The notes beneath the pieces were generated by a model. The model did no database searches and had not been told where the DNA came from. It saw only the letters and a program-made list of their open reading frames with translations. Positions 2,083 through 53,811 of a stretch of 64,000 nucleotides of DNA are shown here, piece by piece. The position numbers were made by a program, and so were the translations under genes. Each line of letters starts with the position of its first letter. The stretch's first letter is position 1. The stretch comes from the human T2T-CHM13v2.0 reference genome, Homo sapiens: the NCBI RefSeq assembly GCF_009914755.1, contig NC_060933.1; one strand, written 5' to 3'.

Positions 2083-2285
2083 TTGTTATTACAGCAAGAA
2101 AGAATCCAATATTTGCACACCAATTGATCCATGAATGTCAACAGAGAGCACACAGCCTCTGCCCTCCTAAATTGTTCATCTGTGAACTTGGGTGAAAGTT
2201 GAAAACTCTTATCGAATATTCAAATCTCTTTTTGACAGCTTCTGTCTGACCGAAATTTTCAAACTAAATTGTATGGGTGCATATG
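2083..2285 (-). pseudogene. Pseudo-exon G (203 nt): HMHPYNLV*KFRSDRSCQKEI*IFDKSFQLSPKFTDEQFRRAEAVCSLLTFMDQLVCKYWILSCCNN
   Basis: Acceptor gttccttgtttag, phase 0. Both stops are TGA (CGA decay would give Arg). Donor gcaagt (GC or mutated GT). The 3' boundary is less certain. Confidence 0.6.
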
Positions 2286-2596
2286 CTAAACAAGGAACTT
2301 AACACCCTTCTGTTTTAAACAGTCATTGTATCTAAAATCTCAGGAACATTTCCCACCATTACAAATCCTTAACTGAAGGCACAAGTATTATGTTGGGCTT
2401 CTGAAACCTCAGGAACAAAATTAGGCAGAGCAGACAGAGCCCCCAGCAACTGGATGAGAGTGATAGACGTGAAGCTAACAAAAATTAACCATCTTAGTAT
2501 AAATTATAAAAGGTGATAGTAGAATCTTCAGAGCACTTTACAATATGACTATGCTCTGTACCTCCCAGGAGCCACAAACATGTAACATATACCAAA

Positions 2597-2672
2597 TGTA
2601 TGTGTGTGCGTGTGTATATGTGTGTGTGTGTGTGTATATATATATGTGTATATATATATATATATATATATA
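2597..2672. repeat. (TG)n(TA)n microsatellite
   Basis: Seen directly. Confidence 0.95.
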
Positions 2673-3038
2673 AATATGTACATCTCATAATATTTTTGGA
2701 GAAAATATTGGTAAACCCGGATTAGAACATTTTGCAATCACATTCTTTCCACCTCAGAAAGAACAATTATGTAACAGAAAGCATTTTCAGATCATTTTTA
2801 CAGTAGCAGGAGCCTGATATTTTTAGAGTGCTTTAGGTAAGTTCTCTTGGTGACAAAAATACTATGCACAGTGCTGCTAATGACATGACTCTCTAAAGAC
2901 ACAAACAACTCTTGGTAAATTTCCAAACAAACGAAAGCACATCATTTCTGCAATAAATCTTGTGGCTACATTTCTGAGAAGGTCGGCGCATATTAAAATT
3001 GTGCAAAAATTACTTTGAATCTATATGTAAAATAGTGT

Positions 3039-3787
3039 TGAAATAGGAGAGTTCCCTGACCCCCTTACAGAACATGCTACAGGGGTGTGGTGCATATGTT
3101 CAGCTGTCAGGCACTCAAACCCCTTATGGGAGGGGCAGCATGCAGATGGGATGGTATACAAGCCAGGGTAAGCACTTTTGGGCTCTGGCCCCATGGTAGT
3201 GTCTAGGGGTGGGTGCCTGCGACTCCTAAAGCCCTGGTAAGCATGTGTTACAGTGCTCCTTTAGCTCTGCCATCTACAGACAGCTTAAATGTTAACCAGC
3301 TCAGTGCCCTTTTGGTACCCAGGTCCTTGTCTGGCATCCAGGAAGAATCAGGTTACACACAGACTTGAAGGACGGTTAATTCAGGAGGTTTTATTGAGTG
3401 GTGGAGGTGGCTCTCAGCAGGATGGAGGGGGAGCTGGAAAGGGGATGGAGTGGGAAGATGATCTTCCCCTGGAGTTTGGTCATCCCGCTGCCGAACTCCT
3501 CTCCGACCATCCCCAGCCAAATTCCTCTCAACACTCAGACACTCCTTCTCTGCTGTGCTGCTCTTCTGTTCCTCCGCTCTTCTGCTCATCTGCTTGTGGA
3601 GCCTGGGGTTTGAGGTGTATGTGGGTAGAGGATAGGAGGCTATGGCAGGCCAAAAGCTAACAATTGGGTGTGAAAAGAGGAATGCCCGTTCCCATCTAGG
3701 TCTGAGGGTTTCCAGTCTTGAGGGTAATGCCTTTGCTGGGGAAGTGCCCTCTTCTACCCAGTATTTCCTTGCCTCCTATCTGTATCA
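3039..3787 (-). mobile_element. ERV1 solo LTR, LTR1-like
   Basis: The minus strand starts TGATACAGATAGGAGGCAAGGAAATACTGGGTAGAAGAGGG and ends ...TTTCA; 4-bp TSD GTGT. Confidence 0.85.
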
Positions 3788-3874
3788 GTGTTACTTTCTA
3801 TGTTCAGAAAATCATAAAGTGTTTTTTACCTGCATAAATGTCTAATCAGATATTAAAATATCATGTGAGATATG

Positions 3875-4291
3875 TGTTATGGGCTGAACTGTGATCCCCC
3901 AAATTCATATTTTGAAGTTCTAATTCCCAGTGCCCCAGCATGTAAGATGGGAGAATGTTAGAGTAGGGTGAGCCCTCAATCCAATATAACTGGTATCCTT
4001 ATACAAAGGGAAAATTTGGATACAGGAACACTCACAGGGAGAACACCATGTGAAGATGAAGGCAGAGTCTGAGGTGATGCTTTACAAGCCAAGAAACGCC
4101 AGAGATTGCTAACAAACCACAGGATGGGAGAGAGGCATGGAACAGATTCCCTCTCACAGCCCTCAGAAGGAACCAACCCTGCCAGGACCTTGATCTCAGA
4201 TTTAGCCCCTGGAATTGTGTGACAATACATCTCTGATATTTATGCCACTCAGTTTGTGGTCTTTGTTACAACAGCCCTTGGAAACTGATAC
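3875..4291 (+). mobile_element. MaLR solo LTR, MLT1B-like
   Basis: tgttatgggctgaactgtg start, cagccctcagaaggaaccaaccctgc, and a ttgttacaacagccc...ctgatac end. Confidence 0.85.
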
Positions 4292-4525
4292 GATGTGGAT
4301 TAGAGTGAGACTTCTCAAAGGATATCTTTTTATATCGTGTTAATTTTTTAAGCCAAGTGAATGTAGTACCCATTCAACATAGCATATTTTTTATACAATC
4401 CCATGCTAATGAGATACTGTCTCATGGGGAGCTGGGGAGAAGACAGCGAGAAAACCATTCAAATCCAGTCCACATGATTCCTCTGGCAGGGATCTACCAT
4501 TCTATAAAGTGGTAATGCTGAGTGC

Positions 4526-51000: not shown

Positions 51001-51070
51001 CTGCTTGGGGATTTTGAAAGAGGAAACTGAGTTTGCCCAAATCCTCCAGAGTTCTCTCTCTCCAATATGC
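51001..51070 (-). pseudogene. Candidate pseudo-exon F2 (70 nt)
   Basis: Strong acceptor cccctgctcttctgtcag and donor CAG|gtaatt. Open in all three frames (e.g. HIGERELWRIWANSVSSFKIPKQ or AYWRERTLEDLGKLSFLFQNPQA). Confidence 0.55.
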
Positions 51071-51219
51071 CTGACAGAAGAGCAGGGGCAATGATTAGTT
51101 GTCTGACAGTCCAAAGGGTCTGGGGTATCTAATAAGCTGACAATCGGGTGGGAAAGTCAATCTCATTTATGGGTGGAGACCTAGGAGGCCCACTGTGGCC
51201 ATGCTGCTAAGTCAACCCA

Positions 51220-51930
51220 TCATTCACTCATTTGCGTGTTCCTTATTCAACAAATGCTTATTTACCTCCTACACATGCCAGGCACTATTCCAGGCACTAG
51301 CGATACAGCAGTGGAAAAACAGACAAGAAAGAAACAGATTTTCTGCCCTCATGGAGCTTACATACCAGCAGGGAATACAGATAATAAAGAAACATAGATA
51401 TGTAAGTGATACATATCTATTTTCGTGTATATATGAGTGATATAAAGAGGCAGGGCAGGTTGGCTCGGGAGAGTGCCTGGGAGGACAGAGGTGGTAAGGG
51501 CTGAATTCTGACAGCTACTGACTCTGAGGGACACTGGAAGCCATTAGATGACTTTTAACAGAGGAATAATATATTTCTTCTCCTTTCTTGCTTTTTAGGA
51601 ATCACTTTGATTGTCAGGCATGTTCAAAACAGCCTACTGATAGGAGTAGTGGGAAGTGGGACAGCAAAAAACAAGGGTGCAAGCAGAAGCCCAGCTGGGC
51701 GGCTCCTGGGATAATCTAGGCCAGAGAGAATGGCAACTTGGACCCGGGGGTGGCAGTGGACACGGCACACGAAAGAGAAGAAACCTCAGATTACTTCAAG
51801 GTGTTTCGCCTGAGTGACTGGCAGGTGGAGTTGGACTTCACCAAGATGGGAGAACTACAAGAGGGGCAGGTTGAAGTGGAAAGGATCAATTGGATCAAGT
51901 GGAATTGAACATATTCAATTTGAAACATGT
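51220..51930 (-). mobile_element. L2
   Basis: cattcactcatt...ttcaacaaatgc...gccaggcact...ctgccctcatggagcttaca. Confidence 0.8.
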
Positions 51931-52193
51931 TAAGTGAGCAATGGAGAGGAAACGGTTAATGTCAGGGCTGCGAAAACCTGGTCTCCCTGGAAATGTTTCT
52001 TAAGAAACAGCAGAGTTAAGATAAATGGGGAATGTCTCTTCCACCCTTTGTTGAGTGGCTCTGCACCTGGGATGGGGGAGCTGTGGGCTGTCATGTAGGT
52101 CTTAGAACTGCAAAGGACTTGAATAATATAAAACATTTATAAGAAAAAGGAACTATGACTTCTCTGTGTCAAGGTGACCCCATAAACCCTGAC

Positions 52194-52334
52194 TCTCATC
52201 CACAGCAGCCTTGTACACCCCAAGTGGGAGACAGGGCAAAAAGGTCTCGTATGTGGGTCACTACCGGGCCCCTTGATAAGATGAAGATGCTGTGCTTGCT
52301 GAATCTCCTGCTGTGTGTCTTGCTATAAAGCCAT
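52194..52334 (-). pseudogene. Candidate pseudo-exon F1 (141 nt; reading frame ambiguous)
   Basis: Acceptor ttttaatattatgtttag and donor gtcagg. Phase 2 reads WLYSKTHSRRFSKHSIFILSRGPVVTHIRDLFALSPTWGVQGCCG*. Phase 0 reads MAL*QDTQQEIQQ...TRLLWMR. Confidence 0.35.
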
Positions 52335-53714
52335 CTAAACATAATATTAAAACCTATTTGTGTCCTATGAGTCTGATGCTGACTTGAACCCATAACCACA
52401 GCTGTGCTGCTGCATAATAAAGCAGCTATTTTAATCTCTCCTTGTCTGACTGTCTGACTCCTTTAATTCTAAAACTGGGGAGGGAAGAGGATGGTATTAA
52501 TTATTGACTCCCTAAATTTCCCCATCTTGGTAGGAGTTTCCTTCAGGCTGTGATTTGTGCAAATTAATCTTTATAGTAACTCAGAAGGCAAGAAGCTAAC
52601 TGCAGACATGAAAATCCAACACTGTCAGAACCATTAAATCTTTACCCAACACTTGGAACCACAAAATGTCTCTAGTGCTGCTCCTTTAATGACGAACATA
52701 TGGTTCCCTAAACAGAAAGAAAGAGCTCTTCTTCTGTACTGGTGGCCACCAAAAACACTGAACAAAACAGCCCATGGCAAAGGCCAAGACAGACCATGCA
52801 GACAATGGTCCCACCCTCTCCTTGGAAGGCTATGCTCTCACCAGGAGCAGAACAGTCCTTGATCACAGGAGTCAATTCACCACTGTGTGAATCACCTCTA
52901 TTATCACATCAGCACAGGCCATGGAAACCACGGAAAGACTGATCTGCAGAGAGATTTTGCAGAGGTTATTATGGGCATGTTGATCCCTCATCACACAGAG
53001 CTTTTAGAGTTGAGCCAGACACTCCCTCCTTCCTCAAGTGTCAGTAAGAAGAAGAGGAGTAAGAGGATATTATAATGCTCTTACTTCAGGGAACAACAAC
53101 GTAGGCTATGACTTAACTAATTCAGGTACCAAGCTCACTGAGGCCCTGCTATGAGTTGACATTGCTTTAGACCCTGGGGATACAGCAGTGAACACAACAG
53201 ACAAAATCACCTCTTCCTTGATGGAGCTTACATTCCAGTGGAGTGAGACAAAAAAGATGATGATTTTTTAAAAAAATTTATTTTGAATGGCTGGTGCCAT
53301 TCAACCATGGTTCTGTAATAAGAAATCTTGGAAGTCAAGTTTTAAAAATTCCTCCTGAGACCACAGATGCCACGAGTACTCTTCCAAGAGTGATGCTAAC
53401 ATTTGGGCACTTGGAGAATCATGGCTCTCAGCTCCACTTCTTCACTCCTCCTTATCAGCTCCTCCTGGATTTTACATTTTAATTGGGGCTGGCACATGCA
53501 ACTGTTCCCTTTTTGCTTCCGTTAGTCTGACAGATTAGGCCAGTTGGTTTATTAACGACTTGGCCACCTACCAACAGCATAAGCACCGGGATAAATCCCA
53601 GTGGAGGGTCTCTCCTCTGCTTCCGCTGAGCTTGGTCTTGAAATGCTTTGATATCTACAGCAGTAAAAGCACAAGGAAACTAATTGCTCAATGGTAGCAC
53701 GGCTTTGCACTTAC

Positions 53715-53811
53715 TTATCAGAGAGAATCATCTTTTGGAAATTAATGTGTACATCTCCTCGATGCCATGACAAACTCACAAAATCTCATCACTCTGGTCT
53801 GAGAAATATGC
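53715..53811 (-). pseudogene. Pseudo-exon E (97 nt): (W)HISQTRVMRFCEFVMASRRCTH*FPKDDSL**
   Basis: Acceptor ttattttgttctag and consensus donor gtaagt. Phase 2 in and phase 0 out; three in-frame stops. Confidence 0.6.

What the first reader, a model, noticed from the sequence alone, without database searches (positions are those of the whole stretch)
2083..53811. Two interleaved genes, or one gene with a 48-kb optional F-box cassette
Seen: exon E ends in phase 0 (...FPKDDSL**) and exon G starts in phase 0 (HMHPYNLV*KFRSD...). Joined directly they read naturally (DDSLRx-HMHPYNLVRKFR) and G has no LRR character. Yet nine same-strand exons, including the F-box and LRR exons (52334 to 4526), lie between them. 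In one frame assignment this block enters and exits in phase 0, so it could be included or skipped in frame. In another, with fewer stops, it needs its own upstream exon. Established: FBXL proteins carry multiple LRRs, but only one LRR exon occurs before exon G. Inference: either the remaining LRR exons lie beyond coordinate 1, interdigitated with a second gene, or alternative splicing toggled an SCF-recruiting module onto an otherwise unrelated protein. Both architectures are unusual.
Basis: inference. Interest (0 to 1): 0.85.

Follow-up and report, generated by a model that had tools for sequence, protein, structure and literature searches.

The report
Dead F-box/LRR gene, ordinary exon order
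The window holds part of an unannotated, long-dead human gene for an F-box/leucine-rich-repeat ubiquitin-ligase adaptor; its exons lie in the normal order along about 124 kb, so there are no interleaved genes and no optional cassette.

Summary
A real gene relic is present on the minus strand. A clean F-box exon lies at 44145-44284 (Pfam F-box-like, E 3.7e-8 genome-wide). Exon G (2121-2285) follows in the phase that this exon demands, and it reads as leucine-rich repeat. Seven more LRR exons lie left of the window, down to chr9:95223650. From the F-box exon to exon f every junction fits in phase; the E to F-box and f to g junctions are inferred. Joined inside a script with X at eight breaks, the 460 residues score 90.5 bits (E 5.6e-30) against an FBXL14-family profile; 101 controls reach at most 5.2 bits. 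The model carries seven in-frame stops, one frameshift and two lost donor sites. No human paralogue was found. It is a unitary FBXL pseudogene absent from RefSeq. E is at best a first coding exon read in another frame. E joined to G hits a stop after seven codons. Its orthologue was not identified.

The parts
53715..53811 (-). Only its last 17 bases would be coding (ATG..., giving MILSD plus 2 spare bases). Unproven.
   Evidence: Acceptor ttgttctag| and donor TAA|gtaagt. Its ATG frame leaves 2 bases, which join the aatag|A acceptor of the F-box exon without any stop. It is not unique, however. On the minus strand between 44.3 kb and 98 kb, 31 of 2678 GT sites score at least as high as this donor. 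Nine of those 31, E included, also offer an in-frame ATG with 2 spare bases. No Pfam match.
44145..44284 (-). F-box exon, 140 nt, free of stops. A weaker AAG acceptor would start it at 44294. It ends with T|gtaagc, which splits the conserved Trp codon.
   Evidence: Genome-wide PF12937 scan: 44.9 bits, E 3.7e-8, over the 24.3-bit cut-off, listed 21st of 87 matches. Direct Pfam scan: F-box-like E 8.9e-12, F-box E 9.7e-8. PDB: the best match is the SKP2 F-box, E 1.9e-6. No closer human copy: the best other locus has 46% identity.
4498..4695 (-). First LRR exon (linker plus LRRs), 198 nt, with two in-frame TAG stops. It starts with GG, which completes the Trp codon of the F-box exon.
   Evidence: Of 45 AGGG acceptor candidates downstream of the F-box exon, this one has the best polypyrimidine tract (0.8). 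Sequence. LRR-unit profile: 10.5 bits against a control maximum of 9.1. PDB: FBXL17, E 0.048 only. Pfam: nothing.
2121..2285 (-).
   Evidence: Borders. The frame required by the previous exon stays open for the first 24 codons. The frame that ends flush at the donor stays open for the last 33 codons, which include an LRR-like motif. The next exon (c) starts with a whole codon, as that frame requires. No independent homology signal.

Best explanation
The window contains the 5' third of a single unprocessed, unitary pseudogene of the F-box/LRR (FBXL) family. It lies on the minus strand between FRMD3 and RASEF and is not annotated by RefSeq. The ancestral gene encoded a protein of about 458 residues: a short N-terminus, an F-box (the part that docks onto SKP1 in SCF ubiquitin ligases), and a solenoid of cysteine-containing leucine-rich repeats (the substrate-binding part). 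Its 10 or 11 exons lie in ordinary linear order over about 124 kb. In order they are: (E, uncertain), F-box exon, L1, G, then c, e, b, d, a, f, g left of the window, ending 11 kb before the RASEF start. In human the gene is dead, with seven in-frame stops, one frameshift and two donor sites that are no longer GT.

Shown: the F-box, the LRR exons, their order, their phases and their defects.
Inferred: the ancestral function (from family membership), E as the start exon, exon g as the last exon, and an age of the order of 50-100 million years.
For: F-box exon.

LRR exons on the same strand that exceed the controls made from the reversed sequence:
- tblastn: 32.0 and 29.3 bits against a control maximum of 23.1.
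- phmmer on 60-residue windows: 18.9, 17.6, 14.4 and 10.0 bits against 8.0.
- FBXL14-family profile: 27.7, 18.7, 13.4 and 8.1 bits against 6.7.
- LRR-unit profile: the 10 best separate hits are all on the minus strand (10 of 10).

Exon b matches FBXL2 in the PDB at E 5.1e-6.

Phase chain with natural splice sites:
- F-box to L1 rebuilds TGG.
- L1 to G, G to c, e to b, b to d, d to a and a to f all fit.
- The c/e and e/b junctions both recreate the same motif (..GATS|L.. and ..HGTS|L..) at LRR spacing.

The distance from the ATG in E to the TAA in g is 1378 nt, which is 3x459+1. The extra base matches the frameshift seen in G.

The conceptual product (460 residues, X at 8 breaks) scores 90.5 bits, E 5.6e-30. 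Its F-box aligns to profile positions 18-55. The reversed sequence and 100 shuffles reach at most 5.2 bits.

No exon overlaps a masked repeat. No paralogue was found in the human genome. RefSeq has no gene here (and the finding's annotation note).
Against: Several exons have no significant signal of their own. For L1, c, e, f, g and G, Pfam found nothing for the 5 pieces tested (in that call only the exon a piece reached LRR_6, E 0.018, below cut-off). The PDB searches gave no FBXL hit for G, e or g, and for f only FBXL2 at E 1.3. Their place in the model rests on splice sites, phase and repeat spacing.

Two donors were chosen although they are not GT (c has GC, f has AT). The f/g junction codon itself reads TGA, so g may not belong to the gene, and f may hold the natural stop.

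E is one of nine equally good candidates for the start exon.

No intact orthologue was found. The word search is blind to full-length proteins when the query is an exon-sized piece. Padding the query with FBXL14 returned only FBXL14 orthologues.

Two further LRR-like stretches do not fit the phase chain: one left of the window at about -15.4 kb (chr9:95278560-95278680) and one at 7361-7480.
Confidence: 0.85

Rival explanations
1. Two interleaved genes: E and G belong to one gene, whose intron hosts the F-box and LRR exons of another gene on the same strand.
For: E and G have good splice-site borders. The F-box and L1 exons lie between them.
Against: E and G have no homology of their own: Pfam gave 0 families and the best PDB match was unrelated, E 1.6. 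G fits the FBXL chain in phase on both sides and carries an LRR-like motif. The whole chain including G scores as one FBXL protein.
Confidence: 0.02
2. One gene with an optional 48-kb F-box cassette that alternative splicing includes or skips.
For: None from these tools beyond the geometry. With the weaker AAG acceptor, the F-box exon (150 nt) plus L1 (198 nt) would total a multiple of three (coordinates).
Against: In the gene's frames E joined to G reads seven codons and then TAG. With the consensus TAG acceptor the two exons sum to 338 nt, which is not a multiple of three. Skipping would leave LRRs without the F-box that gives the family its function. The gene is dead in any case. No transcript data could be consulted.
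Confidence: 0.02
3. The locus is only partly dead: a transcript still encodes an F-box-only protein. One form would be 101 codons from the ATG in E to the first TAG in L1. Another would join the conserved 305-codon ORF just right of the window to the F-box exon.
For: The F-box exon and E's coding tail carry no defect. A 359-codon open frame at chr9:95358237-95359313 (-) is unique in the genome. It is collinear with a 326-residue leopard protein at 60% identity, with only one-residue indels within the shared frame, and with a macaque protein. It has a GTGAGG donor leaving 1 base, which would fit the AAG acceptor of the F-box exon.
Against: A clean 46-codon exon is expected by chance at the defect rate seen: about 7 stops in 442 codons implies roughly 0.7 expected. 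A stop in L1 followed by downstream introns should trigger RNA decay (established knowledge). The leopard protein reads through the proposed donor, and conservation continues beyond it. No F-box is annotated in either homologue. Human-macaque identity of about 88% over 113 residues is close to what neutral change would give (my count; the neutral expectation is recalled).
Confidence: 0.07
4. Nothing is there: the exon-like stretches are chance open frames in intergenic DNA.
For: RefSeq annotates no gene.
Against: The F-box hit at E 3.7e-8 for the whole genome. Several same-strand LRR exons above all reversed-sequence controls. 90.5 bits against at most 5.2 for 101 controls.
Confidence: 0.01

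Closest known systems
FBXL2 / FBXL20 / FBXL14-type F-box proteins (short N-terminus, F-box, cysteine-containing LRR solenoid; SCF substrate receptors)
   Same: The same domain order and a similar size (about 458 residues). LRR units of about 26 residues with the C-x-x-[ILV]-[TS]-[DN] core. One exon (e) is exactly one 78-nt repeat. Exon b matches FBXL2 at E 5.1e-6. The whole conceptual product matches the FBXL14 profile at E 5.6e-30.
   Different: It is not a copy of any of them. No human locus comes close to its exons. Its F-box is nearest to SKP2 in the PDB, and FBXL2 is not among the 16 chains listed at E<=1. It is disabled.
FBXL21P, the known human FBXL pseudogene (intact in rodents)
   Same: An FBXL family member lost on the human lineage while keeping its introns. 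The papers that my searches found name it as the FBXL case among human unitary or polymorphic pseudogenes: PMC2864566 (passage with Table 2) and PMC7555810 (passage in section 3.1), read.
   Different: FBXL21P is annotated and transcribed, lies on chr5, and in Table 2 of PMC2864566 has a single polymorphic nonsense site. The relic here is unannotated, carries at least ten defects and looks far older.
SKP2 (FBXL1)
   Same: Best solved-structure match of the F-box: 31.3 bits, E 1.9e-6.
   Different: The genome search gave 44% identity to the SKP2 F-box exon at E 2.8. The relic's F-box exon covers Pfam positions 1-40 and the SKP2 exon positions 1-35, so the intron positions differ. The LRR exons match FBXL2, FBXL17 and FBXL14, and did not match SKP2.

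Membership tests
F-box proteins | An F-box motif of about 40-47 residues (Pfam PF12937 / PF00646) | tested here: met
   PF12937 at 44.9-45 bits (cut-off 24.3), E 3.7e-8 genome-wide and 8.9e-12 direct. PF00646 at 32.1 bits (cut-off 20.5)..
FBXL subfamily | Leucine-rich repeats of the cysteine-containing type C-terminal to the F-box, on the same strand and in the same reading chain | tested here: met
   Same-strand LRR exons exceed reversed-sequence controls. FBXL2 match at E 5.1e-6. The chain scores 90.5 bits against controls of at most 5.2. The curated Pfam LRR cut-offs were not reached by any single piece: the best was LRR_6 at 15.5 bits against a cut-off of 23.4.
Unitary (unprocessed) pseudogene | Introns kept, with splice-site-like borders | tested here: met
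   11 exons over 124 kb. 11 of 11 acceptors are AG behind pyrimidine tracts. 8 of 10 donors are GT.
Unitary (unprocessed) pseudogene | Disabling mutations in the coding sequence | tested here: met
   7 in-frame stops (TAG x2, TGA x3, TAA x2), 1 frameshift and 2 non-GT donors. At least five of the stops sit inside repeat cores and cannot be spliced around.
Unitary (unprocessed) pseudogene | No functional copy or parent elsewhere in the same genome | tested here: met
   Six-frame searches of the whole assembly with the F-box, L1 and b pieces found only the pieces themselves. The next best hits were 46% identity at E 0.028, E 0.218 and E 1.16. Closed regions of the assembly are not shown by the tool.
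Unitary (unprocessed) pseudogene | An intact orthologue in other species | tested here: inconclusive
   One search was blank because the length filter admits only proteins of 39-124 residues. One search listed only FBXL14 orthologues (120 shown of 267). No vertebrate genomes are on hand.
Nested or interleaved gene pair | A second gene with coding evidence of its own, whose exons flank the first gene's exons | tested here: not met
   E and G have no homology of their own. G belongs to the FBXL chain by phase and motif.
Cassette (optional) exon block | Skipping keeps the frame, and transcripts show both forms | tested here: not met
   On frame: E joined to G hits TAG after seven codons, and the F-box exon plus L1 total 338 nt. 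Transcript evidence cannot be tested with these tools.
FBXL2/FBXL20 orthology group | Closest relatives by sequence, with shared intron positions | tested here: inconclusive
   FBXL2 is the best PDB match for exons b and f, but the F-box is nearer to SKP2. Intron positions of FBXL2/20 were not compared.

The most novel reading that the evidence does not exclude
The gene lost its substrate-binding LRR domain but is not entirely dead. An open frame of 101 codons survives (the ATG in E, the whole F-box and the first 48 codons of L1). A 305-codon ORF conserved with carnivores lies upstream on the same strand, with a donor in a compatible phase. A human transcript could therefore still make an F-box-only protein that binds SKP1 without a substrate-binding domain, acting as a decoy or regulator of SCF ligases.
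Probability: 0.06. Interest if true: 0.55.

Novelty: new member of a known kind. Interest (0 to 1): 0.3.

Why it matters
If confirmed, this adds one more member to the ancestral mammalian FBXL set. It would be a substrate receptor of SCF ubiquitin ligases that the human lineage lost long ago, sitting in what is annotated as a gene-free gap between RASEF and FRMD3. That would interest people who catalogue gene losses and F-box families. It would also explain any conserved, exon-like blocks in this interval.

It is not an unusual gene architecture. The finding as written, interleaved genes or a switchable SCF module, should not be carried forward.

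Tried and rejected
PDB searches with G, e and g gave no F-box/LRR hit. The Atlas search with the F-box exon returned only generic F-box clusters. For the upstream ORF the Atlas holds the same 305-residue sequence, modelled as disordered, with no relatives.

The F-box-like tail that I saw by eye at 52156-52257 has no support, and I dropped it. 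A weak F-box-like hit at 9880-10119 (10.3 bits against a control of 8.0) and LRR-like stretches at 7361-7480 and about -15.4 kb (7.4 and 9.5 bits against a control of 9.1) do not fit the phase chain. They are left out of the model. Other profile hits looked at were noise.

Searching the locus with the relic's own pieces found no further exons. Non-exon hits reached 13.3 bits on the plus strand against a control maximum of 10.8.

A hunt for a 'missing' exon between a and f found 7 candidates, none convincing. It became moot when one search showed that exon a ends one base later (GG|gtagga), so that a joins f directly.

The 10-row alignment A1 was too scrambled to use. The percentile lines printed were computed with a wrong index and are disregarded.

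Papers: five searches found nothing on this locus. I read only matched passages of PMC7555810 and PMC2864566.

Full report
**Where the window lies.** It is chr9:95294001-95358000 of T2T-CHM13, in the gap between RASEF (ends 95212707) and FRMD3 (starts 95392782). Both genes are on the minus strand. RefSeq places only RN7SKP242 in the window (and the finding's annotation note).

**Check of the observation.**
- Both peptide strings exist on the minus strand: FPKDDSL at 53721-53741 and HMHPYNLV at 2262-2285.
- E (53811-53715) has a good acceptor and a TAA|gtaagt donor. G (2285-2121) has a good acceptor and a TTG|gtgtgc donor.
- Eight stop-free pieces around 53.7, 52.2, 4.6 and 2.1 kb matched no Pfam family even at E<=10.
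- The LRR-looking piece at 4550-4699 matched FBXL17 in the PDB only at E 0.048.
- Up to this point nothing was more than chance would give.

**The turning point.**
- A scan of the whole assembly with Pfam F-box-like (PF12937) gave 87 matches.
- One of them lies in the window, at 44146-44265 (-): 44.9 bits against a cut-off of 24.3, E 3.7e-8, listed 21st of the 87, in a 71-codon open frame without stops.
- The direct Pfam scan gives E 8.9e-12.
- The nearest solved structure is the SKP2 F-box, E 1.9e-6.
- No other human locus is close. The best has 46% identity at E 0.028; the SKP2 exon has 44%.

**Walking the gene from the F-box exon.**
- The F-box exon ends ...DKSL plus T|gtaagc, so the conserved tryptophan codon is split after its first base.
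- There are 45 AGGG acceptor candidates downstream.
- Joining there rebuilds TGG and reads on into WQIPITDCLVLEDDGVV....
- This exon (L1, 4695-4498) has two in-frame TAG stops and ends with one spare base.
- G begins with two bases that complete that codon. In exactly this frame G stays open for 24 codons.
- G's last 33 codons are open in the frame that ends flush with the donor. They contain SPKFTDEQFRRAEAVCSLLTFMD, which follows the cysteine-containing LRR pattern.
- A single frameshift within about nine bases reconciles the two halves of G.

**Left of the window.**
- I fetched chr9:95214001-95394000.
- I searched it with the human FBXL14 frame and an FBXL7 exon, then with a profile built from 35 of the 70 FBXL14 orthologues of 390-470 residues among the 120 that one search listed, and then with a one-repeat profile. 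The reversed sequence served as control each time.
- Minus-strand hits stand above every control:
  - tblastn: 32.0 and 29.3 bits against 23.1.
  - phmmer windows: 18.9, 17.6, 14.4 and 10.0 bits against 8.0.
  - Family profile: 27.7, 18.7, 13.4 and 8.1 bits against 6.7.
  - Repeat profile: 27.3, 10.5 (L1), 9.5 and 9.4 bits against 9.1, with the ten best separate hits all on the minus strand.
- Inspection gave seven exons, in chr9 coordinates:
  - c: 95271688-95271842
  - e: 95267748-95267825
  - b: 95250828-95250984
  - d: 95246038-95246165
  - a: 95245465-95245581
  - f: 95226820-95226930
  - g: 95223650-95223761
- Exon b matches FBXL2 in the PDB at E 5.1e-6.
- The exon a piece reaches Pfam LRR_6 at E 0.018, below cut-off.
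- No exon overlaps a masked repeat.

**Why these exons form one gene.**
- The phases chain with natural sites: G ends flush and c starts flush; e needs two bases and gives two; b takes one and ends flush; d starts flush and leaves two; a takes one and leaves two; f takes one.
- The c/e and e/b junction codons both read Ser, giving ..GATS|LQGLSINGC.. and ..HGTS|LHKIEVFGC.. at repeat spacing.
- From the ATG in E to the TAA in g the exons sum to 1378 bases, which is 3x459+1. The extra base matches the frameshift in G.
- I joined the exons inside a script, with X at the eight breaks. The 460 residues score 90.5 bits, E 5.6e-30, against the FBXL14-family profile, and the F-box aligns at profile positions 18-55.
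- The reversed sequence and 100 shuffles reach at most 5.2 bits; 91 of these 101 controls were scored at all.

**Defects.**
- In-frame stops: two TAG in L1, TGA in c, TAA in b, TAA in d, TGA in a, and TGA at the f/g junction.
- One frameshift, in G.
- Two non-GT donors: GC after c and AT after f.
- The F-box exon and exon e are clean.
- The stops in c, d and a, and at least one of those in L1, sit inside repeat cores. The stop in b cannot be avoided without leaving a 16-residue 'repeat'.
- On this sequence 4.6% of substitutions create stops. Six or seven stops in 442 codons therefore correspond to about 0.10-0.11 substitutions per site.
- With recalled primate and mammalian neutral rates, that is of the order of 50-100 million years. 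This is a rough inference.

**Weak points.**
- L1, G, c, e, f and g have little or no signal of their own.
- Exon g rests on an AT 'donor' and a TGA junction codon, so f may instead hold the natural stop.
- Two LRR-like stretches do not fit the chain: one at about -15.4 kb, which has an excellent acceptor, and one at 7361-7480.

**The 5' end is open.**
- E offers ATG ATT CTC TCT GAT AA|gtaagt. This joins the consensus aatag|A acceptor of the F-box exon to read MILSDKDADFSQWLLLPDEIW... without a stop.
- That gives a short N-terminus, which I recall is usual for FBXL2-type proteins; I did not check this.
- However, 31 of 2678 upstream GT sites score as well as E's donor on a recalled frequency table. 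Nine of those 31, E included, give an ATG with two spare bases, and seven give one spare base.

**An alternative 5' exon.**
- It is a 359-codon open frame just right of the window, at chr9:95358237-95359313 (-). See the noticed items below.

**Conclusion on the finding.**
- The order E, F-box, L1, G on the chromosome is simply the order of the gene's exons.
- G is part of that domain. There is no second gene and no evidence for a cassette.
- In the gene's frames, E joined to G reads seven codons and then TAG.

**What could not be done.**
- The orthologue was not identified.
  - The exon-sized query found no candidates, because the tool sees only proteins of 39-124 residues for that query.
  - The padded query returned 120 listed proteins, nearly all named as FBXL14 and none pointing to an orthologue of the relic; 267 passed the threshold among 1049 named candidates, and 6951 unnamed ones were set aside.
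  - The third search went to the upstream ORF.
- No vertebrate genomes, transcripts or alignments were available.
- Five literature searches found nothing on this locus. In the passages I read, the only FBXL pseudogene named was FBXL21.

Noticed in passing
just right of the window: chr9:95358237-95359313 (-), window-equivalent 64237-65313; L035:237-1313: A 359-codon stop-free frame, 305 codons from its first ATG. It is unique in the genome, has no Pfam family and is not in RefSeq. It is collinear with a 326-residue 'uncharacterized protein' of leopard: 60% identity, the same start, and only one-residue indels within the shared frame. It also overlaps a macaque model at 87% identity over 32% of its length. 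The Atlas holds the same sequence, modelled as disordered. After ...FPERLG the human frame is shifted relative to the leopard one. It may be a fast-evolving unannotated gene or an old 5' exon of the FBXL relic.
   Followed up: partly
L041:4787-8731 (-), chr9:95372787-95376731: Two long open frames (730 and 394 codons) that read as LINE-1 ORF2 (reverse transcriptase and endonuclease parts, recognised by eye). It looks like a fairly young L1 between the relic and FRMD3. I looked at it once only.
   Followed up: no
left of the window, about -15400 to -15320 (chr9:95278600-95278680), minus strand: An exon-like stretch behind an excellent acceptor (ctttgtttttgtttaaag|) that reads ITDLYGDKIN*FEHFSLNIYMHHAL. 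It scores 9.5 bits on the LRR-unit profile against a control maximum of 9.1. It would leave two spare bases and so does not fit between G and c. It may be a further decayed exon.
   Followed up: partly
7361-7480 (-) and 9880-10119 (-): Weak LRR-like (LNSSCQRLTSVGSFSLAQ; 7.4 bits on the unit profile, 22.7 bits in tblastn) and F-box-like (CGWYFQCWEERVLERFEL; 10.3 bits against a control of 8.0) stretches inside the 39-kb intron. They are probably chance matches.
   Followed up: partly
52156-52257 (-): A 34-codon frame ending ...AAVDESQGLWGHLDTEKS. It has no Pfam match and no profile signal.
   Followed up: yes
14100-14670 and 2540-2740: Simple-sequence tracts that translate as runs of Y, I, H, T and C on both strands.
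   Followed up: no
25014-26864 (-), 47708-48166 (+), 21300-21541; 14748-15011, 55610-56257, 58205-58480, 59001-59340, 63106-63450: Open frames that read as LINE-1 ORF2/ORF1 fragments and as Alu-derived peptides. I recognised them by eye in the ORF list and did not test them. Some lie on the minus strand and could have been mistaken for exons.
   Followed up: no
window-equivalent 74901-75400 and 84201-84700 (chr9:95368901 and 95378201 onward): The only two CpG-island-like 500-bp windows in the 180 kb examined. The second lies just past an annotated hESC enhancer (95377510-95378211). There is none near exon E.
   Followed up: no
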